Shown in pieces: positions 1 to 40,535 of a DNA stretch of 52,525 nucleotides; position 1 is the first letter of the stretch; each line of letters opens with the position of its first letter. Position numbers and translations under genes: made by a program. This stretch comes from a virus (taxonomy: Duplodnaviria > Caudoviricetes). Location: the IMG/VR virus record IMGVR_UViG_3300037524_000555, positions 1 to 52,525 of that record; one strand, written 5' to 3'. The notes under the pieces were generated by a model. The model searched no databases and was not told the DNA's origin. It saw nothing but the letters and a program-made list of their open reading frames with translations.

Positions 1-31
1 GCGAAGCGCCACAATGAGACCAGTTCCATGA

Positions 32-286
32 TCATGGCACGCCCTTGCTGCGCACCAGCGCTGCCAACACGACGTTCAGGTCGTCGATGCCCGACTGGAT
101 CCTGTCGATGGCCATGTCGATGTCCTCGCATTCCTCGTTGTCGGACAGCTCGGCCAGCACGAAGGACAGCAGGCTGTCGCCATATTCGTCCGAGTAGCTG
201 TAGGTCCCGACCATGTCGACAAAGTCACCATCGGCGTAGCCTGCGAGGGCAAGGCGCTGCCAGTCGTTGAGTGGTTCCCTGCTCAT
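32..286 (-). CDS. small acidic hypothetical early protein
   Basis: 84 aa ORF; GAAAGGAACAAGCC-ATG SD context; overlaps stop of upstream gene. Confidence 0.7.
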   Translation of the reverse strand: MSREPLNDWQRLALAGYADGDFVDMVGTYSYSDEYGDSLLSFVLAELSDNEECEDIDMAIDRIQSGIDDLNVVLAALVRSKGVP

Positions 287-558
287 GGCTTGTTCCTTTC
301 ATGCAGGCGCTCGTGACGTTCGATGAACGGGCGAGGGTCTGGGTCTTTCTTGTGCCAGTCCAGCGGCAGGTCGTGGGCTATGGCGAAGCACATGGCTGTC
401 AGATCCTCAGGGGCATAGACCTTGCGCCACTTGTAGATGGTCGACTGGTGCACATTGTGCAGGCGTGCTGCTTCCTTCACACCCATGGTTTCGGCGTCCA
501 GCATGATGGCCACTCGCGTCTCATCGGCGAGGCCGTAGTCAGGGTGAAGTGTGGTCAT
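283..558 (-). CDS. helix-turn-helix DNA-binding protein
   Basis: GVKEAARLHNVHQSTIYKWRK is a typical HTH pattern; GAGG SD. Confidence 0.7.
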   Translation of the reverse strand: MTTLHPDYGLADETRVAIMLDAETMGVKEAARLHNVHQSTIYKWRKVYAPEDLTAMCFAIAHDLPLDWHKKDPDPRPFIERHERLHERNKP

Positions 559-561
559 GGC

Positions 562-735
562 TTACCTCGGACCTGCGTGGATGATGGCCTTCGCCTGCAC
601 GAGTGCGCCCACGACGGCACCCTTGGCCGTGAGGATCTCGTTGTCGCTCCATGTGCCGGTGTCGAAGGCCATCACGGCCCTTACCTCGGCAATGGCCTCG
701 CGCAGAAACTTCTCGGTGATGCTTCCGGTGGTCAT
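562..735 (-). CDS. 57-aa hypothetical early protein (not in ORF track)
   Basis: Read manually: MTTGSITEKFLREAIAEVRAVMAFDTG...HAGPR*; AAAGGAACAAGACC-ATG; fills the gap between neighbours. Confidence 0.7.
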   Translation of the reverse strand: MTTGSITEKFLREAIAEVRAVMAFDTGTWSDNEILTAKGAVVGALVQAKAIIHAGPR

Positions 736-769
736 GGTCTTGTTCCTTTCTTGGTTGCTAGGACGCGTC

Positions 770-1207
770 CTAGCGTTTCATTTCGATGACGGGCAGGCCA
801 TGCTTCACGGCAGCGTCGCGCAAGGCGGCATCCTTGCCTGCCCCGATGACGTCGCTGATGCTGCGAACCCCGGCCACGCGGCGCTCCTCGTGGATCACCA
901 GCACACGGAAGTTGTCGTAGAGGCCTCGCGTGATGCGCAGCACGGCGCGCCCGTCGGTGGCCGGGCAGGTCTCGATCGCGTCGTTGCCACAGACATAGCT
1001 GTTCGTCCCCATGGAACGCACGAGCAGGAAGAAGGTCTCACCCTCGGCGAGGCCCGCGGCGCGCGTCGCGTCATAGAGGAGATCCGAGTGGTAGGCGTCC
1101 TCGGCCATGAAGGGCAGGGCCTTGTGGGCAATGGCGTTGAACGCGTTGCGGAAGGCATCGGACTGCACGATAGCCTCGGCGGTGACTGTGAGCTTGATCT
1201 TCATCAT
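770..1207 (-). CDS. hypothetical early protein
   Basis: Start MMKIKL after AACCAAGGAACCAGACC; stop TAG lies inside palindrome 757-774. Confidence 0.7.
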   Translation of the reverse strand: MMKIKLTVTAEAIVQSDAFRNAFNAIAHKALPFMAEDAYHSDLLYDATRAAGLAEGETFFLLVRSMGTNSYVCGNDAIETCPATDGRAVLRITRGLYDNFRVLVIHEERRVAGVRSISDVIGAGKDAALRDAAVKHGLPVIEMKR

Positions 1208-1285
1208 GGTCTGGTTCCTTGGTTGCGATGTGGGCTTGGCCCGGGTGGTCACGGCCTTGGCCGTGGGGTGGTGCTAGGACGCGTC

Positions 1286-1861
1286 CTAGCAGGTTGCTCC
1301 GGCGTGGCCGGAAGTGAGAAACTCGACGGTTATGTCGCAGCACAGGCAGGGCAGCGCACCGTATTCCATACCCTCGTGGCCTTGGTCGTGGGCAACCTCG
1401 CGGCTCACCCGGCGCAGCTTGAAGGGACCGAACTCGCGCTGCATGTCCGCGCTCCAGCGGCGGTAAGCCTCGGCAATGTCCGCCGTCGTGTCGACGGGCA
1501 GGTTCAGGAGCATGTGCGCCCAGTCGATCGGGCACGAGAGCGTCAGCATGTCATCGCTTTCGGCGTCGGTGCTAGGACACGTCCTAGCGGGCGGGCCATA
1601 GGCCGGCACCGAGCTTCTCGGCTCGTAATCCACGCCCCAGCGATGTGGGTTGGTCGTGGGCTGTGCGATGGTATCGAAGCGCTTGGTCAACTCGACAGGC
1701 GGAAGCTGCACTGTCATCGGCGTGGTGTAGCGTGGGCGCGGGGCGCGGATGTGAGGCACGACCTTCGTGCTCTTGACCGGCTTCGACTTCGAGAAAGTCT
1801 GGAAGCGCAGCACTTGCACGTCACTCGCAGCGATCAGGTTCCGCAGTTCTTCCTTCGTCAT
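1286..1861 (-). CDS. hypothetical early protein, possibly a fusion of two units
   Basis: Start MTKEELR after AACCAAGGACCAAGGCC; in-frame internal palindrome (ARTCPS); stop TAG inside palindrome 1273-1290. Confidence 0.55.
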   Translation of the reverse strand: MTKEELRNLIAASDVQVLRFQTFSKSKPVKSTKVVPHIRAPRPRYTTPMTVQLPPVELTKRFDTIAQPTTNPHRWGVDYEPRSSVPAYGPPARTCPSTDAESDDMLTLSCPIDWAHMLLNLPVDTTADIAEAYRRWSADMQREFGPFKLRRVSREVAHDQGHEGMEYGALPCLCCDITVEFLTSGHAGATC

Positions 1862-1986
1862 GGCCTTGGTCCTTGGTTGCAGTGCTAGGACGCGTCCTAG
1901 CAAGGGGTCTTCGTTGGCGGCGCTAGGACGCGTCCTAGCAGGCAGAATGCGGGCAGGGTTCCCCCTTCCGCGCCGTTTTTCTTTTT

Positions 1987-2040
1987 ATCTTACACCCTAC
2001 GGTATCATATAGCAACATCTACGAATAATTTAGTTTTTTT
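1987..2040 (-). promoter_or_regulatory. sigma70-like early promoter with A/T-rich upstream element
   Basis: TTGCTA-17 bp-TAAGAT on minus strand, preceded by an A-tract. Confidence 0.7.
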
Positions 2041-2103
2041 GGTAGTAGCTGTTACCATCTGGGGAACTGGCATCGGGGCGGCATTGCTGCCGCCCTCGTG
2101 GGC

Positions 2104-2172
2104 CTCACGGCACAGCCTCGCAGTCGCCTCGCGGCGCCGCCATAGAGCGTTCGCTCACGGCACAGCCTCGCA
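2104..2172. repeat. 19-bp direct repeat CTCACGGCACAGCCTCGCA x2
   Basis: Copies at 2104-2122 and 2154-2172. Confidence 0.85.
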
Positions 2173-2424
2173 TGTAATGCGAAGCTTCCCGTAGTTGCGC
2201 CGCGTCTCCTCGTCCCAGCGAACGCCGAGGGACTTGGCCCGCATCCGCACAGACCCGTCAGGGCGTGCATAGGATAGCGCCGTGGACCGCACCTGCCTGA
2301 TGTAGTCAGACGGGGCGATGACGTCGACGTAGTCGCCAACCTGCATGTCGCGCCAAGGCCACTTCCGACGCGGCCGGCCATAATGCAGATCTTCGATACC
2401 GATGGTGATGGTGGGTAGTTTCAT
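2155..2424 (-). CDS. small hypothetical protein (W-x-x-M-Q-V-G-D motif), putative DNA-binding
   Basis: Start MKLPT after AAGGGAG; shares motif with 40625..40843. Confidence 0.65.
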   Translation of the reverse strand: MKLPTITIGIEDLHYGRPRRKWPWRDMQVGDYVDVIAPSDYIRQVRSTALSYARPDGSVRMRAKSLGVRWDEETRRNYGKLRITCEAVP

Positions 2425-2499
2425 GTGTCTCTCCCTTGCGGTTGTGGCAGCGCCATGGCAGCTGCTAGGACGCTTCCTAGCATGGGCGGCCGGTGGTAG

Positions 2500-2990
2500 C
2501 AAGTGCTAAGTGCCTGATGTCGCAGTGGTATGAAATGGTATGAATTTTTTGGCGATGGTATGAATTTTGGCTAAGTCATTGATTTTGTATGAGTATGATT
2601 AGTATAGTATAGTATGTATGTTAATTTATTTATGAAACCGGATTTTTTGCTGAGGCTGCGTTTTTTCGCTCGGCCGGTCAGTGCCTGTCCCGGGGTTGCC
2701 TGTGCGTCTCCGCGGGGCTATCATACCACATCTCCCAAACATACCATGTAAAATCAAGCACTTACAAAAAATCATACCACTTGGCCAATCTACATACTCA
2801 ACATACCATAGAAAGCGCAGCATTTTCAGTCACTTGGCCAATAAAACTACTCACATTTTGGCCAAACCGCGGCAATCATACCATCTGAGCCGAGGGACAT
2901 ATTTCAAAATAAACCCAGAAAAAAGTGTAATTTGAGGAGAACTATTTCAAAATACGGCCTTTTCGACCCCGTCGCGCGGTGGTATGATTG
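2500..2990. promoter_or_regulatory. AT-rich non-coding island with TGGTATGA/TCATACCA repeats and IHF-consensus sites (candidate replication origin or packaging-control region)
   Basis: TGGTATGA at 2526, 2536, 2556, 2980; TCATACCA at 2721, 2772, 2876; WATCAANNNNTTR matches at 2572-2584 (-) and 2752-2764 (+). Confidence 0.6.
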
Positions 2991-3042
2991 CTCGTGGAGC
3001 GCGTAACGCTGCGCCGAGAACTGGTCTCAAAGGAGTGGTAGT

Positions 3043-3333
3043 TTGCCTACACGAGCAAAAAGAGAGCGCGCCGCCGAGCGCGCAAAATGCGGAGACACAT
3101 GCTATGTCTGCGGAACTGGACCGCTGATCAGGAAAGCGCTGCGCACCGCAGTTGCAGACGGGATCAAGATCGCTTGCTGCAAGAAGTGCATTGTGCTGGC
3201 GAACGACGCGGGCGAGATCACCGCCGAGGCTTGGGTGCAGCGCATGCGTGAGGTGAGCCGTGAGTATGATTGTCTCTATACTGCGGCGATCGGCTGGCTG
3301 CCGCGTGTCCCTGTGCCGAAGGCGCTACGCTAG
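3043..3333 (+). CDS. Cys-rich putative Zn-finger protein (degenerate HNH-like)
   Basis: TTG start after AAGGAG; CYVCG...CCKKC; stop TAG inside palindrome 3329-3346. Confidence 0.55.
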   Translation: MPTRAKRERAAERAKCGDTCYVCGTGPLIRKALRTAVADGIKIACCKKCIVLANDAGEITAEAWVQRMREVSREYDCLYTAAIGWLPRVPVPKALR

Positions 3334-3442
3334 GACGTGTCCTAGCACTTGCCCCGAGAAGCGCACCGCTGCGTAGAGAACTGGTCTCAGGGCAGGCAGC
3401 GTGCTGTTCTGGAAACTGGCATCGCGCGCCTGCCGCGAGGAC

Positions 3443-3522
3443 AAAAAAAAAAGGGCGACACCCGAAGGCGCCGCCCATGCCGCGAGACAAAAAAAAAAGG
3501 GCGACACCCGAAGGTGCCGCCC
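3443..3522 (-). terminator. tandem duplicated rho-independent terminators
   Basis: Two GGGCGGC(A/G)CC-TTCG-GGTGTCGCCC-T10 hairpins immediately downstream of 3530..4192. Confidence 0.9.
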
Positions 3523-3529
3523 AATGTGA

Positions 3530-4192
3530 TTAGCCGTTCAGGCCGTAGACTTTCAGAGCATCGGCGAGGAAGTTGGCCAGCTTGCCCGACTGGACAAGAT
3601 CAATGGACCCGTCGTGCTTTTCGGCATCGCGACGCAGCCGCTTAATGGCGCTGTTGATGCAGTCCGCCACGAACTTCGCATCGGTCTTTGGTGTCGACGC
3701 GCCCCGCTTTTCCGCCTCGATACCGTCAAGCTCATCCTTCAGAGCCTTCAGGATCTTGACGAACTTTCCCCATTCCTTGGAGCCGAGAATGCTATCCTTC
3801 AGCGCCCGCTTGGGTTGAGGCTTGCGGCCGCCCGCCGGTTTGATGGTAGCATCGCCGGGAACGTTGCGGTCGAACAGTTGTTCTGTAGCAGCCGCGCCGA
3901 TCTTATAGACCGAGTAGACAGACCGCACGAAGTCAAAGCCAGCCTGCTGAACCTGTGTCCGGCTTTCGCCGTCCTTCAGCGGAGCGAGCCACGCAATGTC
4001 GATCTGGTGCGCGACGATGACGGTTTCCACGAAGGCAAGAGCCGCCTTGTGAACGTTGCCTTCGGCCTTGCGCCAGACATCGGCGACCTTGATTTCATCA
4101 GCGCCAATCGCGAAGCGAGTGGACGCCACCTCGCCAGCAACAAGAGCGAGGGAGGAAGTTTCGGCGGGGGCATTGGTTTCGATAACAGACAT
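3530..4192 (-). CDS. hypothetical protein, first gene of leftward early arm
   Basis: Start MSVIETN after AAGGA; own promoter and double terminator. Confidence 0.75.
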   Translation of the reverse strand: MSVIETNAPAETSSLALVAGEVASTRFAIGADEIKVADVWRKAEGNVHKAALAFVETVIVAHQIDIAWLAPLKDGESRTQVQQAGFDFVRSVYSVYKIGAAATEQLFDRNVPGDATIKPAGGRKPQPKRALKDSILGSKEWGKFVKILKALKDELDGIEAEKRGASTPKTDAKFVADCINSAIKRLRRDAEKHDGSIDLVQSGKLANFLADALKVYGLNG

Positions 4193-4242
4193 AGTTGACA
4201 CATCCTTGTGTTTGTCGGCTGGACCATCCAACCGATAAGATC

Positions 4243-4270
4243 AATCTACCACGAGACGCCACGAGATCAA
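4243..4270 (-). promoter_or_regulatory. sigma70-like promoter (extended -10)
   Basis: TTGATC-16 bp-TAGATT with TG at the extended position; spacer has TCGTGG twice. Confidence 0.55.
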
Positions 4271-4664
4271 GGGATATACGCCGCGATAGTGTAATGCTAG
4301 GACGCGTCCTAGCATCGGAAAGGTGGAACGGCGCGACCCCACCGGGAGGCTACCCACCTGCGGCAGCGCGGGACTCCACCCACCTATGTATTACCAATAC
4401 GCACGAACGACCCCGTACTTTTTTGAACTTCGTCCAACCAGCCCGCTTTTCAGACTTGGCTGGCGCCGACGCCTTTGAACTCCGTCCAACCAAGCCCACT
4501 TGGCCGCCTAGCCAGCGAAACCTTGCGCAGACATAAATGCAGCGGCATTTGTTGGTTGACGGGTCCCATACCCCCACCCCTCTTTTTTCTGGCCCGGGGC
4601 GCTTCCGGCACAAAAGACACCCCCCTCTTTTCAGATGGGACTCCTGCGTGCTAGGTTGCAGGTC

Positions 4665-5327
4665 ATGCAGATAGACATCGAACTGGACAAGAACGTGCCA
4701 ATTCCTGAGAAGGGTCCGTATCCGGAGTACCGGGTCGTCCTCGATGCTGCGGCCAACACGGCCAACATGCTCGCGGCGGCAGGGTTGGATTTTGCCCCGA
4801 CAGATGATGACATCGACACCGCCGCTGCCACGGTGCGTACTGCTGCCAAAAATCCGGGCGGGATGAAGACTGACACGCTTCTGAGCTATACCCCCGCCGC
4901 GGTGATGCTGACCAAGCAGATCCTCGATGCCTACGGGCACAAGATCATCGAGGAGGCTGAGAAGGTTCGCCATCTGGTGATGAACAAGCTGGTGCAGGAG
5001 ACGGAGAACAAGGACCCGAAGATCCGCATCCGTGCCCTCGAGCTCTTGGGCAAGATGGGCGACGTGGGCCTGTTCACCGAGCGGAAGGAAGTGACCATCA
5101 CCCACCAGAGCTCCGACGACGTGAAGGATCGGCTGCGTGCAAGGCTGGCCCGGCTGCTGCCGCAGGGGACGGGTGCCGTGCCGGACGCCGAGATCGTAGA
5201 GCCCCCCGCGCTGCCGAAGGCGTCACCGCCGCCACCACCGGCACCGAAAACCACCGAAACGGTGGACGAGCCAAGCTATAAGCTGTCGCTTGAGGCCAAG
5301 CCGGCCTCGGCCAGTCTTTTCGAGTGA
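4665..5327 (+). CDS. putative terminase small subunit
   Basis: First late gene upstream of TerL; helical KIRIRALELLGK segment; Pro-rich tail; positional inference. Confidence 0.5.
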   Translation: MQIDIELDKNVPIPEKGPYPEYRVVLDAAANTANMLAAAGLDFAPTDDDIDTAAATVRTAAKNPGGMKTDTLLSYTPAAVMLTKQILDAYGHKIIEEAEKVRHLVMNKLVQETENKDPKIRIRALELLGKMGDVGLFTERKEVTITHQSSDDVKDRLRARLARLLPQGTGAVPDAEIVEPPALPKASPPPPPAPKTTETVDEPSYKLSLEAKPASASLFE

Positions 5328-5337
5328 AAGGGGCGCC

Positions 5338-5727
5338 ATGACCGTCGTCAACTTCCCGAAGCGCGAAGAACCGGACGCCATCTGGGTTTGCAACTGCGGC
5401 TGCGCCAGCTTCGAACTGCATGCGGACGGCTGCGCCACCTGCCGGTCGTGCAGGTCGGTCGTGGACGAAGGTGGTTGGAAAACACGCGCAGAAGGCGATG
5501 CGGAGCACGAGGGTGAAGTGTCTTTCTCGGATGCCGGGAACGACGCCACTTTCGCCGAACGCAAGATAAAGCGCGAGGCTCAGGGTGCCCACTGGATCAT
5601 CTGCGGCACCTACGAAGGGCGCATCATGTCATGGTCCGAAGGCTTCATTGAGACGCCTGACCAAGAGGAATGGTTGCGTAAAAATGTGGAAATCGGGCTG
5701 CTTGAGATCCTGAAGGACAAGCCCTGA
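5338..5727 (+). CDS. hypothetical Cys-containing protein
   Basis: MTVVNFPKRE start with SD; CNCGC...CATCRSC; stop overlaps terL start. Confidence 0.7.
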   Translation: MTVVNFPKREEPDAIWVCNCGCASFELHADGCATCRSCRSVVDEGGWKTRAEGDAEHEGEVSFSDAGNDATFAERKIKREAQGAHWIICGTYEGRIMSWSEGFIETPDQEEWLRKNVEIGLLEILKDKP

Positions 5728-7277
5728 TGAAGGTTGACATCGGCTTCAGCGACGAGGAGCTCCGTGCCCTCGCTGCCAACATTGATCATCTGGAGCCCGA
5801 CGAGGCGGCCGAGGTCGAGCGGCTGCTGGAAGAGCTGGAGATGCGCCTCAAGCGCGAGGCGGCCCGGGATGACCTGATCGCCTTCTGCCAGTACATGGAC
5901 CCCAACTATAAGGTCGGCCGGCACCACCGGATCCTCGCTGCAGAGCTGATGGCCCTCGAGAGTGGCGAGAAGGACCGTGCAGCGGTCAACATGCCGCCGC
6001 GCCACGGCAAGTCGGAGATGGTGTCGAAGTACTTCCCGGCATGGTTCATCGGGCGAAACCCGACGAAGAAGATCATGATGGTGTCGCACACCACCGATCT
6101 CGCGGTCGATTTCGGTCGCAAGGTGCGAAATCTGATCGACGACACGAAGTTTCAGGAGGTGTTCGAGGACATCCACCTGTCCGCGGACTCGAAGTCGGCC
6201 GGGCGCTGGGACACGAACAAGGGCGGGACATACTTCGCCTGCGGCGTGGGCTCGAGCCTCGCCGGCCGCGGCGCCGACATGCTCATCATCGACGACCCCC
6301 ACTCCGAACAGGACGTGCTGAACGGCAACTTCGAGGTGTTCGACAAGGCCTACCAGTGGTTCACCTTCGGTGCCCGGACCCGCCTGATGCCCGGCGGCAG
6401 GGTCTGCGTCGTGGCCACACGCTGGCACTTGGACGACCTGACGGGGCGCCTCGTGCGCGACATGACCCAGAACGAGGACGCTGACCAGTACGAGGTCATC
6501 GAGTTCCCGGCGATCCTCGAGAAGAAGCTGCCGGACGGGACGATCAAGGAGCGGGCGCTCTGGCCTGAGTTCTTCGACCTCGATGCGCTGCACCGGACCA
6601 AGGCGTCGATGCCGGTCTTCCAGTGGAACGCGCAGTATCAGCAGAACCCCACGGCCGAGGGCAGCGCCCTCGTGAAGCGCGAGTGGTGGCGCCGGTGGAA
6701 GGAGACCAAGCCGCCGGAGGTGTCCTACATCATCATGGCGCTGGACACCGCGACGGAAGAGAAACAGCGGGCTGACTACACCGCTCTGACAGTCTGGGGG
6801 GTGTTCTTCAACGAGGAGGAGCACGCCAACCAGCTCATCCTGCTCGAGGCCATCCGCCGTAGGGTCGAGTTCCCGGAGCTGAAGAAGCTCGCGGTCGAGC
6901 AATACCGGATCTGGGAGCCGGACGCGTTCATCGTCGAGAAGAAGAACTCCGGCGTGGCGCTGTTTCAGGAGCTCAGGCGCACAGGGATGGTGCTGCAGGA
7001 GTACATGCCTCACCGGGGCAGCGGCAACAAGTACGCCCGCCTGCAGTCCGTGGCCGACATCGTGGCCGCGGGCATCGTCTGGGTGCCAGAGACGCGCTGG
7101 GCAGAGGAGCTCGTGGAAGAAATCGCGGCGTTCCCGGTCGGATCCCACGACGACTTGGTCGACAGCACGGTCATCGCCCTCATGCGGTTCCGCCAAGGGG
7201 GCTTTCTGCAGTTGAAGAGCGACGACGAGGTCGATATTCAGGGCGAATACATCCCCTACAGGGCGGCCTATTACTGA
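5727..7277 (+). CDS. terL: terminase large subunit
   Basis: Walker A NMPPRHGKS, Walker B LIIDDP, nuclease motifs ALDTA and HDDLVDS. Confidence 0.95.
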   Translation: MKVDIGFSDEELRALAANIDHLEPDEAAEVERLLEELEMRLKREAARDDLIAFCQYMDPNYKVGRHHRILAAELMALESGEKDRAAVNMPPRHGKSEMVSKYFPAWFIGRNPTKKIMMVSHTTDLAVDFGRKVRNLIDDTKFQEVFEDIHLSADSKSAGRWDTNKGGTYFACGVGSSLAGRGADMLIIDDPHSEQDVLNGNFEVFDKAYQWFTFGARTRLMPGGRVCVVATRWHLDDLTGRLVRDMTQNEDADQYEVIEFPAILEKKLPDGTIKERALWPEFFDLDALHRTKASMPVFQWNAQYQQNPTAEGSALVKREWWRRWKETKPPEVSYIIMALDTATEEKQRADYTALTVWGVFFNEEEHANQLILLEAIRRRVEFPELKKLAVEQYRIWEPDAFIVEKKNSGVALFQELRRTGMVLQEYMPHRGSGNKYARLQSVADIVAAGIVWVPETRWAEELVEEIAAFPVGSHDDLVDSTVIALMRFRQGGFLQLKSDDEVDIQGEYIPYRAAYY

Positions 7278-7462
7278 TGACCCGTGCTGAGCCGACAAAC
7301 GAGATGCGCGAGGAGCTCGAGCGCATGAAAAAACGCCTCGAAAAGCTCAAAAACAGCACCCAAAACACTGAAAAAAGGCGCCAAAGTTGGATAATCCGGT
7401 CCGAAATGGAGGTCCTGAGGGCCAATATCGCCTCTCTGGAGCGCCGCTACCGCTTTGACTGA
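7277..7462 (+). CDS. small coiled-coil hypothetical protein
   Basis: 61 aa, TGATG coupling to terL. Confidence 0.55.
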   Translation: MTRAEPTNEMREELERMKKRLEKLKNSTQNTEKRRQSWIIRSEMEVLRANIASLERRYRFD

Positions 7463-7513
7463 GCGCCATTTGCCTGTATAGTGCGCCAAACTCACCTCTA
7501 GGAGGACGATCTG

Positions 7514-39800: not shown

Positions 39801-40535
39801 GAGGATTTCGAGACGGTCCTGCAGAAGTATGTGCAGCAGCCATTCTACCATGGGGCCATCAACTACCTGACCGGGGCAGAGGTCGCGTCGCGCATCTCCT
39901 TCAGCGGCCTGATCTATCGCGAGAACAAGATCGAGAAGGATCAGTTCTGGCTCTACGACCTCATCGAGACCTTCGGCGGCCCGGCTGTCGGCGTGCTGAT
40001 GAACGCATCGCGCGGAACTGGTCTCATCGCGGAAGGTGAGACCTACCGCGGCGTCGAGGCAATGGCCCCGGCATTCATCCGGAACTTCATGAAGTCCGGC
40101 CGGTACATGTTCGAGGGCGCCCGCACGGTGCGCGGTGACGAGATTGTCCCGCTCTCCACTGCAGACATCGCGATGCAGATGATCGGCTACACCCCGGCCA
40201 CCTACGCCCGGCAGCAGGAGGCTGTCTCCGGCGAACGCAAGATCCGCGAGGCTGTGAAGCGTGAGAAGGGCAAGCTGTATCGCCGCTACTATCTGGCGCA
40301 GCTCGAGGGCGACTACGAGGAAGCCCGGGAGATCTGGATGGACATGCAGGACTTCAACCGGCGCAACCCGACGTCGCAGATCACCCGCGACACGCTGAAG
40401 AAGTCGATGAACGCCTACAAGAACCGCACTGCCGAGATGGTCAGCGGCGTGAGCTTCAGCAAGTCCGACCGGCCGCTCGTGATGGAGAGCCTTGCAGAGT
40501 ACGACCAGAATGCGACGCTCTGGTCCGGGCAATAA
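33852..40535 (+). CDS. large polyvalent virion protein with zincin-like metallopeptidase motif
   Basis: 2227 aa; AGGAGG SD; LLHEVVH with downstream EEFVAEA; PEPT linker; helical C-terminal region. Confidence 0.75.
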   Translation: MAVIQVPGQKSGRTYSVRIAGDTPSPSEQERIRQYLDQQEAQFSESYKGFFGQEPAVDDGTALGRGIEIGGTAAYSKLGTAAEYLGSGLGIESLRNFGQGMQTSAANEAFLESLAMPAPMRREDISGVSDALTWLGEGIGQSIPEAAAPFAATAAGTFFGGPVAGFGAGAATAFPSFFGGNIQRQEAEVAAGRRAEVDTQSAVLAAIGQSTANAIGDKLLLGGFLKPGQKWLTRAAVGFGEGAAAEIPTEIAQAIMERKQAGLPLDDDEAISEYIDAGILSGVFGGGIRATTAVAGGGPKAAKEPTPPEQPNAPPAPPAAALPPTIAEDLEQESSAVSDNEDVADARSVFEQRRTMLEQSGSTTEEARIDAAKTTLEYIEQLKEVSPALKRFQDILGRQLRNMQDQIGQIAQSLPQVDDDVAAAEAEYNERISVLDYRGATPEVAAKEAAKATVAYIDSRGDIGPNLKAYREKLAASGTKATKPTEMGQPSLPDSAYASEFEDKQQPSLFEPKVKVLTDEMLDDIGVGRIPGNPVRKLAGKPISDPDVRQALGSLAQSPNPKIRPRMAAALLRPEPTAETPDLGSEGVEVAEPIAAAEPDVEAKPDAEVPATAEPTPEPTPEPTPEPTPEPAPEPTPEPAPEPTPEPTPEPTPEPTPEPEATLAPEPTPVPAPVIEPTPPAPPAPDFTADGQSQFNLPPGPPPPPDPNFVPPPQPAPARAEPAVRKTKEQIALERLAADFMSRTTPAYRKATSGEGGLNNSKNWAYYPDITSLEDKMAVLRLLGRVDNATQSKMKMPKSGRLTPQESAARLYFSKVVRPVDALDMMIDDLTVDYAWFRIQPDATDPELNLYELLHGTGHKAAQLAIEWVNANMSPGVKRRVQYRIMDSAQRTKNQEAWIGIGKEGDRVKDQRARKAQQKADLDEAIKDYLKDAPGTIARMAAQDPLAGLDHPLHYTVKQALKNGQLRTALRALAMTNPSPEVRAMATAFADRIGATRVVVGVPGEIVGDFLGAVPDGQVIPGIYVPAMKASDEGTARANEVAKNFGDTIVLDPEHGLTAHVLLHEVVHPLTIGIVRNQPNHPVTRQLTQLMNTVGKAAPPPERYADDGSPVYSDEFYGLTSLEEFVAEALGTVGRKESLLRQLMSRTMADTYRVDNVAVPLTNMQRFFEIIANAIRAMMKRPSKQWPRKLERKVVRETTLDATERLVKGILSPNQEVLPSSVLQKAGGDPAIANLVLSNAIKSAPVWDAEGRDRLRANIRASIPSGARRALLGTLQLEWFADLAGKWLPQVRMLKDLDDQRRGYIDQMTGKTKVLMDDLVEYMRRDPDGFKNLMSLEGQATLFEVDPTKSADSYLGDQEKLDAWHALNRQLAAIGPEGRATFKKMRNFNAAYRKEIEAVLWEQTKAITPDGTKRRSLYSQLLERITSEGVIDPYFSLMRDGDFWLGYTAEDLSVAPTLDPDTGKMMRPLTRYVQAFTSAWDRDRFLQQLKAKKTESGDPVIIGEPDVFMREEVFSRNRAVQPEFLQGVMNIINAAIPDKSLDGHRDAAIDAVKDLFLRFTPEHSLLRSFNKRKGVRGFIGDITPLGVVDAPHDMTHVIAKKSANMTYQLANMKYGAKIQRVRNMAAEAYQEQNRRNDLDQGDKVELQAYYQEFEDRAKFAQSPNISSTAQWVRGITFGMTLGFNISGAINNLMQIPMLGYTHLVGRYDAKGSMRALGFAAKMLTNAGRTYRQTAVGPDGDTVRTLKSVDHAGSIGNYFEVGPDGELRVRTDEEAPRALKNPELRKKIADMDVLVEVLSNNGMLTHSQGQDMLIAENDWLARINKWSGFFMHHAERFNRQAMAIATYNLELDKVRDKDGNVSHEDKVSAAKEAILATEMVNGSLGAAAAPRYAQNAIGSVVFLYKRFGLSMARYIINTTKAALRSVDAGMTPEQQLYARQERAVARYQIGGLLGTAALFSGIQGLPFYGEIMSLLNALFTDDDEEDFETVLQKYVQQPFYHGAINYLTGAEVASRISFSGLIYRENKIEKDQFWLYDLIETFGGPAVGVLMNASRGTGLIAEGETYRGVEAMAPAFIRNFMKSGRYMFEGARTVRGDEIVPLSTADIAMQMIGYTPATYARQQEAVSGERKIREAVKREKGKLYRRYYLAQLEGDYEEAREIWMDMQDFNRRNPTSQITRDTLKKSMNAYKNRTAEMVSGVSFSKSDRPLVMESLAEYDQNATLWSGQ
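35690..35870 (+). repeat. 12-bp coding repeats (PEPT/PEPA)
   Basis: About 11 consecutive EP(T/A)P units. Confidence 0.9.

What the first reader, a model, noticed from the sequence alone, without database searches (positions are those of the whole stretch)
757..4313. Eight 18-bp palindromes punctuate the early region like gene-cassette boundaries
Seen: GCTAGGA-N4-TCCTAGC at 757, 1273, 1571, 1884, 1922, 2464, 3329 and 4296; I saw no copy in the rest of the window. The 7-bp arms are invariant and all variation is in the central 4 nt. Three ORFs (770..1207, 1286..1861, 3043..3333) use the palindrome's own TAG as stop codon, and four copies lie about 20-65 nt before a start codon. Spacing is gene-sized and irregular (38-967 bp). 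Inference: a dedicated cis-element system that I cannot assign to a known family. Options are recombination sites that shuffle early genes, binding sites for a dimeric protein (operator or parS-like cluster around the putative origin), or 7-bp/4-nt-loop hairpins used for RNA processing or as hairpin promoters.
Basis: partly seen in the sequence, partly recalled or inferred. Interest (0 to 1): 0.85.

Follow-up and report, generated by a model that had tools for sequence, protein, structure and literature searches.

The report
Lineage-specific palindromes heading phage early genes
An uncultivated phage carries eight identical short palindromes at the heads of its early gene units, its relatives carry their own versions at the same places, and what reads them is still unknown.

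Summary
GCTAGGA-N4-TCCTAGC occurs 8 times in 757-4313, nowhere else in the 52.5-kb virus record, against 0 expected.

It is a clade-wide feature. Of 17 related IMG/VR loci with at least 4 kb upstream of the large terminase gene, 15 carry their own repeated palindrome. Arms are invariant within a genome; the centre varies in sequence and sometimes by 1 nt in length. On the late side the count is 0 of 51. One complete relative has all 16 copies in a 13-kb early stretch.

Copies sit directly after a stop codon and about 21 nt before the next Shine-Dalgarno-preceded start codon (55 of 125 copies against 11.5% of random windows), or in the control region.

Because arms are invariant while centres and flanks drift, some factor probably reads the arm sequence. 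I did not identify it. My best guess is a multi-copy DNA operator for a phage-encoded dimer (about 0.37). An RNA hairpin read by a stem-specific factor comes close (about 0.3).

No ParB, recombinase, Y1 transposase or phage RNA polymerase was found. The nearest described parallel is the 17-bp repeat of Cluster O mycobacteriophages, whose function is also unknown.

The parts
757..774 (.). Palindrome copy 1 (centre CGCG). It contains the TAG stop of ORF 770..1252(-) and lies 21 nt before ATG 735 of ORF 562..735(-).
1273..1290 (.). Copy 2 (CGCG). It contains the TAG stop of ORF 1286..1861(-) and lies 20 nt before GTG 1252 of ORF 770..1252(-).
1571..1588 (.). Copy 3 (CACG on +), read through in frame inside ORF 1286..1861(-). 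An in-frame ATG (1549) follows 21 nt later. The part downstream of that ATG matches a stand-alone 86-aa gene of relative G001.
1884..1901 (.). Copy 4 (CGCG), 22 nt before ATG 1861 of ORF 1286..1861(-). The leader contains CAACCAAGGA.
1922..1939 (.). Copy 5 (CGCG), in tandem with copy 4. It lies about 40 nt downstream of a promoter-like site.
1987..2015 (-). Sigma-70-like promoter candidate TTGCTA-N17-TAAGAT for the leftward early operon. Read by eye; 8 of 12 matches, below the threshold of the scan tool.
   Evidence: sequence; not listed
2464..2481 (.). Copy 6 (CGCT), 39 nt before ATG 2424 of ORF 2155..2424(-).
3018..3029 (+). Second repeated motif, GAACTGGTCTCA, directly before the SD and TTG start of ORF 3043..3333. 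Further copies are at 3378(+), 40015(+) and about 9-20(-). The relatives' version is ACTGGTATCA, often 3-17 nt before a palindrome.
3043..3333 (+). Small Cys-rich (CxxC...CxxC) protein of 96 aa whose TAG stop lies in copy 7. Two paralogues stand at the same place in G001.
3329..3346 (.). Copy 7 (CGTG), in the control region. It is followed 31 nt later by the second GAACTGGTCTCA motif.
3453..3522 (-). Two tandem canonical intrinsic terminators (10-bp GC-rich stem plus T10) ending gene 3530..4192. They show what this phage's real terminators look like.
3530..4192 (-). 'Gene X': a positionally conserved single gene between the control region and the small terminase gene. Within 1-7500, only this gene is covered by contigs from RNA libraries.
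4243..4270 (-). Promoter-like TTGATC-N16-TAGATT for gene X. Read by eye; 8 of 12 matches.
   Evidence: sequence; not listed
4296..4313 (.). Copy 8 (CGCG), 25 nt upstream of the -35-like hexamer of gene X, between gene X and the terminase genes. A palindrome copy stands at the equivalent place upstream of gene X in 14 of 15 relatives checked, with one arm mismatch in G001/L124, L163 and L179.

Best explanation
The eight palindromes are copies of one lineage-specific cis-regulatory site. The site heads the expression units of the early, fast-evolving region in a whole clade of uncultivated tailed phages. A trans-acting factor reads the arm sequence itself, not merely its ability to pair. The most likely form is double-stranded DNA bound by a phage-encoded dimeric protein. 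That would make the site a multi-copy operator: one regulator gates or shuts off the whole early region, either by blocking RNA polymerase inside the operon or by occupying sites next to promoters. The copy upstream of gene X would then serve an autoregulatory or switch role. A likely side effect is that identical sites with a similar leader provide short homology patches where early gene cassettes can be gained, lost or swapped.

Shown here: the sites, their clade-wide conservation with lineage-specific arms, their restriction to the early region, and their placement.

Inferred: that a factor reads them, that it reads DNA rather than RNA, and what follows from binding.
For: (1) Clade-wide and specific. 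Of 17 related loci with at least 4 kb upstream of TerL, 15 hold a 7-nt-arm palindrome family of 3 or more copies. The other two hold families with 6-nt arms (x8) and 5-nt arms (x7). On the late side the count is 0 of 51, and shuffles give at most 1-2 copies. In complete G001 all 16 copies lie within 47027-60123 of 64,307 bases. In G002 all 8 lie within 46524-54041.

(2) Sequence, not just pairing, is constrained. In G001 the 14 arm positions are identical in 16 copies, while the centre takes 10 different sequences and the leaders differ. Only one compensated arm variant was found (L203 10929). No arm position 2-6 shows a G:T or G:U-type variant in the families searched.

(3) The anatomy is operator-like. 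Cores are invariant, the outermost position is partly conserved and symmetric (T...A), and the centre is free. The majority centre is self-complementary in 6 of 10 lineages with even centres (CGCG, AGCT, AATT x3, AT).

(4) A copy stands upstream of the gene X promoter region in W and in 14 of 15 relatives examined. In three lineages that copy has one purine-purine mismatch in one arm. That would spoil a hairpin but only weaken an operator.

(5) Many arm types share a TAG core and differ from one another by 1-2 steps (GCTAGGA, CTAGGGA, GTTAGGG, GTTAGTG, GTTAGTC, CTTAGTC, GTAGTC). This resembles drifting specificities of one reader family.

(6) The same core, CTAGGA-N4-TCCTAG, heads genes in an unrelated 48%-GC marine scaffold (L210).

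(7) The site is not a host high-copy element. The exact 18-mer was found in 3 stretches of the 596-Gb species genome set and 3 of the metagenome set.

(8) Precedents recalled, not read: phiC31 CIR operators, L5 stoperators, and the KorA/KorB operators of IncP plasmids.
Against: No reader was identified.
- Gene X is all-helical with no fold match. Its sequence does not track arm type: L179 and L174 share arms at 30% identity.
- 72 small early proteins from 10 relatives share no DNA-binding Pfam family.
- W's HTH protein (283..558) has no tblastn match in the 80 related loci.

The centre length differs by 1 nt within single genomes (L179: N3 x5 and N4 x4; also L163 and L165). It is 5 instead of 4 in the X4 relative. 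Few rigid dimers tolerate that.

Most copies lie about +40 from promoters or between cistrons, not over promoters.

The fixed distance to the start codon is what an RNA or expression-unit role predicts (45 of 125 copies at 12-24 nt). So is the G001 intragenic copy, which has an in-frame ATG exactly 21 nt downstream where G002 has Asp.
Confidence: 0.37

Rival explanations
1. RNA-level element. In the early polycistronic mRNA each palindrome folds into a 7-bp hairpin just 5' of an unstructured A/C-rich leader and the Shine-Dalgarno sequence. A stem-specific RNA-binding protein or endoribonuclease (Cas6/Csy4-like logic) cuts or binds there. This would give each translational unit a defined 5' end and protect the 3' end of the unit before it, or allow coordinated translational shut-off.
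For: On the early strand, 55 of 125 copies have an SD-preceded start 5-40 nt downstream (45 at 12-24 nt, median 21), against 11.5% of 6000 random windows. On the other strand the figure is 4 of 125 against 3.9%. In 47 of 125 copies the upstream ORF's stop ends within -8 to +7 nt of the start of the palindrome, and in 32 it lies inside the palindrome. Copies separate blocks of 1-4 overlapping genes. Centre length varies within genomes. One compensated arm variant exists. Both intragenic copies (W 1571, G001 L203 5575) have an in-frame ATG 21 nt downstream; in G001 the site is built by codon choice inside a conserved VWA domain. All families fold at -4.6 to -11.4 kcal/mol, one two-copy family at -16.6. 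Copies lie at about +40 in the 5' leaders of sigma-70-like early promoters.
Against: Known RNA-hairpin readers mostly read loops and bulges (recalled), whereas here loops are free and stems are fixed. There are no wobble variants at arm positions 2-6. Stem length stays at 6.3-9.8 bp whatever the arm G+C (0.29-0.71), so the weakest stems reach only about -4.6 kcal/mol. Many centres are self-complementary, which a hairpin does not need. The copy upstream of the gene X promoter lies outside that gene's mRNA, and in three lineages it carries a stem-breaking mismatch. No RNase or RNA-binding family was found among early proteins. The 7-bp stem is too short for RNase III (recalled).
Confidence: 0.3
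2. Phage-specific promoter element. Each palindrome is the binding site of a phage factor that recruits host RNA polymerase, so that each unit is its own transcript starting a few nt downstream.
For: The pattern is invariant within a genome, differs between relatives, stands at the heads of gene units and is confined to one temporal class, as with the promoters of T7-group phages (recalled). The distance to the ATG is constant. Many 3' arms contain TA-rich hexamers resembling a -10 box (my reading).
Against: A perfect palindrome gives no direction. No phage RNA polymerase was found: PF00940 in 0 of 3 genomes, although that search rang in no control genome either. There is no sigma-like hit among the proteins scanned. 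Ordinary strong sigma-70 promoters already exist upstream of some copies. No -10-like hexamer lies between the palindrome and the SD in G001.
Confidence: 0.1
3. The primary role is recombination. The repeats are crossover points (PeSL-like homologous exchange, or an unknown site-specific system) that shuffle early gene cassettes.
For: The early genes between the sites are highly variable. Of 8 W early-region proteins, 7 have no tblastn match in the 80 related loci, while TerS matches in all of them. W copy 1571 marks the junction with a module that stands alone in G001. In G001, paralogous Gly/Tyr-rich small genes end next to at least four copies (3923, 5206, 6645, 9724), which suggests unit duplication. 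In the X4 relative, similarity to W breaks at 782-784, 8-10 nt from copy 757. Recombination between repeats is documented for PeSLs (abstracts of PMC2839356 and PMC4122927) and for Cluster O repeats.
Against: No tyrosine or serine recombinase and no Y1 transposase in three genomes. Seventeen to nineteen bp is short for efficient homologous exchange. Recombination alone does not explain why arms stay invariant while centres and leaders drift, nor the copy built by codon choice inside a conserved gene. The breakpoint test could not be run at the divergence available.
Confidence: 0.1
4. Site for a host factor, such as a host regulator, a CRISPR-repeat-like decoy or a restriction/modification target, with arm type reflecting the host.
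For: No phage reader was found. Arm types are patchy relative to TerL phylogeny. CTAG is otherwise strongly avoided in W.
Against: The exact 18-mer is not multi-copy in any of about 185,000 species genomes. W (63% G+C) and L210 (48% G+C) share the core although their hosts probably differ. More than 15 arm types among phages with 74-84% identical TerL is a lot for a conserved host factor.
Confidence: 0.08

Closest known systems
17-bp repeat of Cluster O mycobacteriophages (Corndog and relatives; PMC4351075, section 8 read)
   Same: A 7-bp inverted repeat with invariant arms and a short variable centre. It occurs in tens of copies, mostly in short intergenic gaps or near the 5' ends of genes in one leftward operon, and is absent from the host. 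Recombination between copies accounts for some indels. The authors suggest binding by a dimeric regulator but leave the function open.
   Different: In Cluster O, all five phages share one sequence, copies are spread throughout the genome including late genes, and about a third lie inside genes. Here every lineage has its own arms, copies are confined to the early region, and most stand at a fixed distance before start codons. The phages and hosts are unrelated.
phiC31 conserved inverted repeats (CIRs) bound by the phage repressor; mycobacteriophage L5 stoperators (both recalled, papers not read)
   Same: One operator sequence is repeated many times in short intergenic regions of early operons, including a copy at the regulator's own gene, and silences whole operons.
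   Different: Those phages are temperate with a known repressor. Here there is no integrase and no identified repressor. L5 sites are asymmetric and orientation-dependent. Spacing between half-sites is fixed in those systems as far as I recall.
PeSLs (promoter-early stem-loops) of T4-like phages (abstracts of PMC2839356 and PMC4122927 read)
   Same: Small conserved motifs flank variable, mostly unknown early genes in hyperplastic regions, and act as points of exchange between otherwise unrelated sequences.
   Different: PeSLs are composite: a strong sigma-70 promoter plus a terminator stem-loop. The element here is a bare 17-19-bp palindrome with no promoter in it and no U-tract. The true terminators of this phage look different.
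Hairpin early promoters of phage N4 read by the injected virion RNA polymerase (recalled)
   Same: Short inverted repeats with a 5-7-bp stem and a small loop, in the first-expressed region of small host-takeover genes. The phage also carries a giant virion protein.
   Different: N4 has three such promoters with conserved, asymmetric loop bases. Here there are 8-16 or more copies with free and often symmetric centres, and no polymerase signal in the 2227-aa protein.
Integron attC sites and REP/RAYT elements (recalled)
   Same: Imperfect or perfect palindromes at cassette or gene boundaries, homogeneous within a genome and different between genomes.
   Different: attC sites (roughly 57-140 bp) and REPs (roughly 35 bp) are longer and imperfect. 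Their enzymes (tyrosine recombinase, Y1 transposase) are absent here.
KorA/KorB operators of IncP plasmids and parS sites (recalled)
   Same: Perfectly conserved short palindromes scattered over a mobile genome and read by one global regulator.
   Different: No ParB_N domain protein in three genomes. The element here lies inside operons before start codons.

Membership tests
Cluster O-type phage palindromic repeat (descriptive class) | 7-bp invariant inverted repeat with a short variable centre, many copies per genome, far above chance | tested here: met
   8 copies against 0 expected. for the relatives. Definition taken.
Cluster O-type phage palindromic repeat (descriptive class) | Same sequence shared by the related phages; copies spread through the whole genome | tested here: not met
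   Arms differ between relatives. Copies are confined to the early side.
Multi-copy repressor operator (phiC31 CIR / L5 stoperator type) | A phage-encoded repressor that binds the site | tested here: inconclusive
   No candidate was confirmed. Gene X: no fold match and no tracking of arm type. Cys-rich ORF found in W and G001 only. No shared DNA-binding family among 72 early proteins. Binding itself cannot be tested with these tools.
Multi-copy repressor operator (phiC31 CIR / L5 stoperator type) | Copies in short intergenic gaps of early operons plus one at the regulator/control region | tested here: met
Multi-copy repressor operator (phiC31 CIR / L5 stoperator type) | Temperate life style (integrase or other maintenance functions) | tested here: not met
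   No Phage_integrase, Resolvase or ParB_N domain in G000, G001 or G002, with controls positive.
N4-type hairpin promoter | A virion-packaged single-subunit RNA polymerase | tested here: inconclusive
   PF00940: 0 of 3 genomes, but the search rang in no control genome. The 2227-aa virion protein matches only LPD39, PLxRFG/tail-700 and DarB-like families, and has no polymerase match among PDB sequences. A cryptic polymerase cannot be excluded.
N4-type hairpin promoter | Asymmetric, conserved loop bases that set the direction | tested here: not met
   Centres vary. In W they are mostly self-complementary. Centres occur in both orientations on the same gene strand (L193, L189).
PeSL (promoter-early stem-loop) | Composite of a strong sigma-70 promoter and a terminator stem-loop | tested here: not met
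   No promoter lies within the element. No T-run follows it in W, except one weak scan hit at 756-775 on the + strand. The canonical terminators differ.
Integron attC / cassette array | Tyrosine recombinase (IntI) and long imperfect attC hairpins | tested here: not met
   0 of 3 genomes. The element is 17-19 bp and perfect.
REP/RAYT | Y1 (HUH) transposase partner | tested here: not met
   0 of 3 genomes.
parS / KorB-type centromere-operator | ParB_N-domain protein | tested here: not met
   0 of 3 genomes; controls rang in 11 of 14.
Intrinsic terminator | G+C-rich stem followed by a U-tract | tested here: not met
   Only the copy at 757 is followed by a weak T-rich tail, on the + strand. The others have no T-run.
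Known RNA family (Rfam) | Match to a curated covariance model | tested here: not met
   window 1-5800 gave only two sub-threshold hits, both on the terminators.

The most novel reading that the evidence does not exclude
The palindromes are the cis half of an undescribed phage expression-unit system. A phage-encoded, stem-sequence-specific reader recognises each hairpin on the early transcript. By cutting or binding there, it turns one long early RNA into separately controlled units with uniform leaders, a natural counterpart of the Csy4-hairpin insulators used in synthetic biology. Reader and stem co-evolve into many specificity types, which also define which phages can swap early cassettes.
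Probability: 0.2. Interest if true: 0.85.

Novelty: new variant of a known kind. Interest (0 to 1): 0.62.

Why it matters
The element is the most conserved architectural feature of the least conserved part of these genomes. The early genes between the sites are almost all unknown and mostly not shared between relatives, yet every lineage keeps a strictly uniform palindrome at the head of each unit.

The clade is large. At least 599 IMG/VR stretches encode a related large terminase, and no isolate in the phage collection searched exceeds 48% TerL identity.

If a reader protein exists, these phages offer dozens of natural, probably orthogonal site/reader pairs with 7-bp half-sites. They would also be a clean system for studying how a regulator and 8-16 dispersed sites change specificity together.

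The work also gives a practical annotation rule for this clade: a palindrome followed by about 21 nt marks a true start codon. It may also bear on the unexplained Cluster O repeats.

Tried and rejected
- **Pattern scan of IMG/VR** with the N4-centre pattern. It returned only single chance matches in unrelated contigs. A re-scan of those loci for a relaxed core found one locus with two copies. Not informative.
- **The search for related loci with early protein 1286..1861**: no relatives.
- **megablast of window 1-6000 against phage records**: no match.
- **Isolates nearest by TerL.** HTVC027P, 023Pt_psg01 and DSL-LC04 have a different gene order. HTVC027P has no palindrome family. The other two were checked only for the W core. 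So the feature is not a property of HTVC023P-type pelagiphages.
- **Papers on HTVC023P-type phages.** Word searches for palindrom, inverted repeat, hairpin, stem-loop and promoter gave no occurrence in the main text of PMC9599517 or PMC12753301; terminator was searched only in PMC9599517, also with no occurrence. Supplements are closed and may hold motif analyses I could not see.
- **Mosaic-breakpoint test** among relatives sharing arm types. DNA identity is only 65-80%, and blocks simply end at gene ends. No verdict.
- **G:U asymmetry test** on imperfect copies. Too few imperfect copies, and those at loop-closing or outermost positions only redefine arm length.
AF2 model with pLDDT 86. Foldseek PDB found no match at E <= 0.001. 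VIA-align wide gave a best Z of 6.8, on the C-terminal helical hairpin only, which is within noise for helical proteins. HHalign of the family against the W and G001 proteins was weak, with probability below 10%. Homologue search returned 4 unnamed relatives besides W's own protein.
- **Cys-rich ORF.** No homologue other than itself. No Pfam match at E <= 0.01, nothing better than 0.036 with the limit at 10, and no NCBIfam match at E <= 0.01.
- **Consensus promoter scan**: 3 sites against 1.8 expected, none next to a palindrome. The two promoter-like sites I give were read by eye and fall below the tool's threshold.
- **Read laying**. All runs are contigs, so they give no RNA ends. Parts of 1-7500 not covered by RNA contigs say nothing. 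In run X4 one 583-nt piece has 21 differences and none in the two palindromes it spans, but only 1.3 would be expected there, so this is not significant.
- **Stop-codon idea.** By my hand count over the arm types, 17 of about 21 contain a stop triplet, against roughly 50% expected. The types are related to each other, so this is weak.

Full report
**1. The observation**

The pattern GCTAGGA-N4-TCCTAGC occurs exactly eight times, at 757, 1273, 1571, 1884, 1922, 2464, 3329 and 4296. None of 100 dinucleotide-preserving shuffles gave a match. Allowing three mismatches adds one unrelated site. Neither half-site occurs elsewhere in the 52,525 bases. CTAG is strongly avoided in this genome, 29 seen against about 178 expected, and 16 of the 29 lie in the palindromes.

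Five copies have the centre CGCG and are perfect 18-bp palindromes. The other three centres each differ from it by one base. The base flanking each half-site is T in 12 of 16 and C in 4 of 16.

I add two points:
- Copy 1273 lies 20 nt before a GTG start at 1252.
- Copy 1571, inside ORF 1286..1861, lies 21 nt before an in-frame ATG at 1549.

**2. Context**

The window is a whole IMG/VR virus record, linear and estimated 86% complete.
- Late genes run rightward from 4635. They include the small terminase (TerS), the large terminase (TerL, 5727..7277), the portal, tail genes and a 2227-aa virion protein.
- Replication genes run leftward from 52525 to 40625. They include a DNA polymerase, an SNF2 helicase, a PD-(D/E)XK nuclease and a primase-helicase.
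- Small unknown genes run leftward from about 2500 to 1.

The palindromes therefore lie in the first part of the leftward operon and in the control region between it and the terminase genes.

The nearest isolates by TerL are below 50% identity: phage 023Pt_psg01, Pelagibacter phages HTVC027P and HTVC023P, and DSL-LC04. The three fetched (all but HTVC023P) have a different gene order, and HTVC027P has no palindrome family.

**3. Relatives**

A TerL search of IMG/VR found at least 599 related stretches, of which 80 loci with 64-76% identity were kept. Each locus with enough upstream sequence has its own repeated palindrome. Examples:

| Locus | Arm and centre | Copies |
|---|---|---|
| L123 | CTTAGTC-N5 | 10 |
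| L133, L158, L167 | GTTAGGG-N4 | 3-6 each |
| L163, L193 | GTTAGGG-N3 | up to 8 |
| L179 | GTTAGTG-N3 / N4 | 5 / 4 |
| L165 | GTTCTAC-N3 / N4 | 8 |
| L199 | TTCGGGC-N4 | 8 |

Counted cleanly, 15 of 17 loci with at least 4 kb upstream of TerL have a family of three or more copies with 7-nt arms. The other two have families with 6-nt arms (x8) and 5-nt arms (x7). On the late side, 0 of 51 loci with at least 4 kb downstream have one. Shuffled sequences give at most one or two copies.

In G001, a complete 64,307-base record, all 16 copies lie in 47027-60123, the 13 kb upstream of the terminase genes. In G002 (66,401 bases) all 8 lie in 46524-54041.

Within a genome the arms are invariant, while the centre varies in sequence. 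G001 has 10 different centres among 16 copies. In three genomes the centre also varies in length by one base.

**4. Placement**

I used my own ORF and Shine-Dalgarno heuristic on 125 copies from 21 families.
- 55 copies have an SD-preceded start codon 5-40 nt downstream on the early strand. Of these, 45 lie at 12-24 nt, with a median of 21. Only 11.5% of 6000 random windows in the same regions do so.
- On the other strand the figure is 4 of 125, against 3.9% of random windows.
- In 47 of 125 copies the upstream ORF's stop ends within -8 to +7 nt of the start of the palindrome. In 32 it lies inside the palindrome.

In G001 the copies separate blocks of one to four genes that overlap start-to-stop. 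They are followed by a leader of the type yCAACCAAGGA, also seen in W. The remaining copies lie in the non-coding control region.

A copy stands upstream of a positionally conserved single gene, 'gene X' (W 3530..4192), in W and in 14 of 15 relatives examined. It lies 85-137 nt from the gene X start in the ten where I measured it, W included. In three lineages this copy has one mismatch in one arm.

Where sigma-70-like early promoters can be seen, the palindrome lies about 40-50 nt downstream of the start. In W this rests on my reading; in L193 and L145.

**5. Gene content between the sites**

Of 8 early-region proteins of W, 7 have no tblastn match (E <= 1e-3) in the 80 related loci, whereas TerS matches in all of them (81 locus entries; L203 and L204 repeat L123 and L165). 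The exception is residues 104-185 of ORF 1286..1861. That is exactly the part downstream of the internal palindrome and its ATG, and it matches a stand-alone 86-aa gene of G001. So copy 1571 marks a real or former gene boundary.

Relatives keep a core of early genes in the punctuated region: an AAA ATPase, a DUF2201 metallopeptidase/VWA protein and a DUF3150 protein. I did not see these among the W proteins I scanned. They may lie in the missing part, because a contig of a close relative (run X4) continues 12 nt past the window's left end into another palindrome copy.

**6. Is it sequence or structure that is kept?**

Arms stay identical while centres and leaders drift. Only one compensated arm variant was found (L203 10929). 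No wobble-type variant occurs at arm positions 2-6.

One G001 copy lies inside the conserved VWA domain with no insertion or deletion relative to G002. It is therefore made by codon choice, and an in-frame ATG follows 21 nt later where G002 has Asp.

Many arm types share a TAG core and differ from each other by one or two steps. A 48%-G+C marine scaffold (L210), with no protein similarity to W, has five perfect copies of CTAGGA-N4-TCCTAG and one imperfect copy, each 10-31 nt before an ATG (five of them SD-preceded).

The exact 18-mer occurs in only 3 stretches of the species genome set and 3 of the metagenome set, so it is not a host repeat.

I conclude that a trans-acting factor reads the arm sequence. 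This is an inference.

**7. DNA or RNA?**

For a DNA operator:
- Cores are fixed, the centre is free, and the outer position is partly conserved and symmetric.
- Majority centres are self-complementary in 6 of 10 even-centred lineages.
- The mismatched copy upstream of gene X would break a hairpin but only weaken an operator.
- Stem length of 6.3-9.8 bp is independent of arm G+C.
- Precedents exist (recalled).

For an RNA hairpin:
- The fixed distance to start codons holds even for the intragenic G001 copy.
- Centre length varies within a genome.
- All copies lie in the transcribed early region.
- Folding energies are modest but consistent, -4.6 to -11.4 kcal/mol.

I could not decide between them. 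I give the operator 0.37 and the RNA hairpin 0.30.

**8. Options tested and disfavoured**

- No ParB_N domain, no tyrosine or serine recombinase and no Y1 transposase in G000, G001 or G002, with positive controls.
- No T7-like RNA polymerase domain (though that search had no positive control).
- The 2227-aa virion protein matches only LPD39, PLxRFG/tail-700 and DarB-like families.
- Real terminators in W are canonical and different.
- Rfam finds nothing.

**9. Candidate readers**

Gene X is positionally conserved. A family of 18 members (17 distinct relatives, since L165 and L204 are one record) was found, of which 17 were aligned; the W and G001 versions are only weakly similar to it. It has promoter-like hexamers of its own and tandem terminators. 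Within 1-7500 it is the only part covered by contigs from two RNA libraries, at 100% identity.

Its model is all-helical with no fold match. Its sequence does not follow arm type.

A small CxxC...CxxC protein ends in copy 3329 and has two paralogues at the same place in G001, but I found it in no other relative. Seventy-two small early proteins of ten relatives share no DNA-binding Pfam family.

**10. Comparison with what is known**

The closest description is the 17-bp repeat of Cluster O mycobacteriophages: 7-bp invariant arms, a 3-bp variable centre and 34 copies. The authors suggest a dimeric binder, leave the function open, and show recombination between copies. The present case differs in three ways: lineage-specific arms, restriction to the early region, and a fixed position before start codons.

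PeSLs of T4-like phages share the role of exchange points in variable early regions, but they are promoter-terminator composites. phiC31 CIRs and L5 stoperators (recalled) share the operator logic but belong to temperate phages with known repressors.

**11. Verdict**

The feature is real, strongly non-random and conserved across a large uncultivated phage clade. It is a new variant of a known but poorly understood kind of element, and its mechanism is open.

Noticed in passing
window 3018-3029, 3378-3389, 40015-40026 (+) and about 9-20 (-); relatives e.g. L193 4782 and 4936, L199 5073 and 5183, L163 3158 and 3256, L133 5006, 5175 and 5270, L204 9230 and 9280: A second conserved repeated motif. 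In W it is GAACTGGTCTCA (4 exact copies). In relatives it is CTrC-N6-10-(gga)ACTGGTATCA, 2-3 copies per control region on the late strand, often with a palindrome starting 3-17 nt after it. It may be a phage-specific middle or late promoter, or another operator.
   Followed up: partly
window 3530-4192 (-); L203 15978-16805; alignment A1: 'Gene X' is a fast-evolving, positionally conserved single gene between the control region and TerS. It has promoter-like hexamers of its own and two tandem terminators. Within 1-7500 it is the only part present in contigs of two wetland RNA libraries. The AF2 model is all-helical with no fold match. The gene is convergent with any late-strand transcription from the ACTGG motifs, which could form a switch.
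   Followed up: partly
window 3043-3333 (+); L203 15010-15318 and 15399-15707: A small Cys-rich (CxxC...CxxC, 'CY.C..GPL') protein family encoded on the late strand in the control region. The ORFs end in (W, L203 15010..15318) or 4 nt before (L203 15399..15707) a palindrome. No known family matched.
   Followed up: partly
window 4314-4420; the same place in 15 relatives: Between the gene X-proximal palindrome and TerS lies a conserved tract. It is G-rich on the minus strand, with four or more G-runs (G-quadruplex-like), and is followed by a conserved AT-rich ...ATTAGTAATA... box. W also has two 19-nt direct repeats at 4422 and 4474. This may be a packaging or late-promoter region.
   Followed up: no
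window 2500-2990: An AT-rich non-coding stretch with GGTATGA repeats (+ strand 2527, 2537, 2557, 2981; - strand 2721, 2772, 2876). It looks like an iteron-type origin or a binding array.
   Followed up: no
L203 3942-4175, 5225-5365, 6664-6888, 9743-9934 (G001): At least four paralogous small genes 'MIWxFLRPLVW..RYG' followed by long Gly/Tyr/Asp repeats. Each is the last gene before a palindrome, which suggests duplication of whole units.
   Followed up: no
L203 5575-5593 (G001): A perfect palindrome copy lies inside the conserved VWA domain of the DUF2201 protein. It is made by codon choice (including a TTA Leu codon, which I would expect to be uncommon at 59% G+C; not measured), and an in-frame ATG follows 21 nt downstream where G002 has Asp.
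   Followed up: partly
window left end (1-31) and run X4: The record probably breaks close to a palindrome copy. A relative's contig continues 12 nt to the left into a copy with a 5-nt centre. A 67-kb contig holding an identical gene X exists in the protein collection but could not be fetched.
   Followed up: no
L193 about 3630 and 2850 (-), L145 about 6240 (-): Near-consensus sigma-70 promoters (aaacaCTTGACA-N17-TAtaaT) inside the early regions of relatives. In L193 they lie 40-50 nt upstream of palindromes. These phages therefore appear to use host polymerase for early genes.
   Followed up: no
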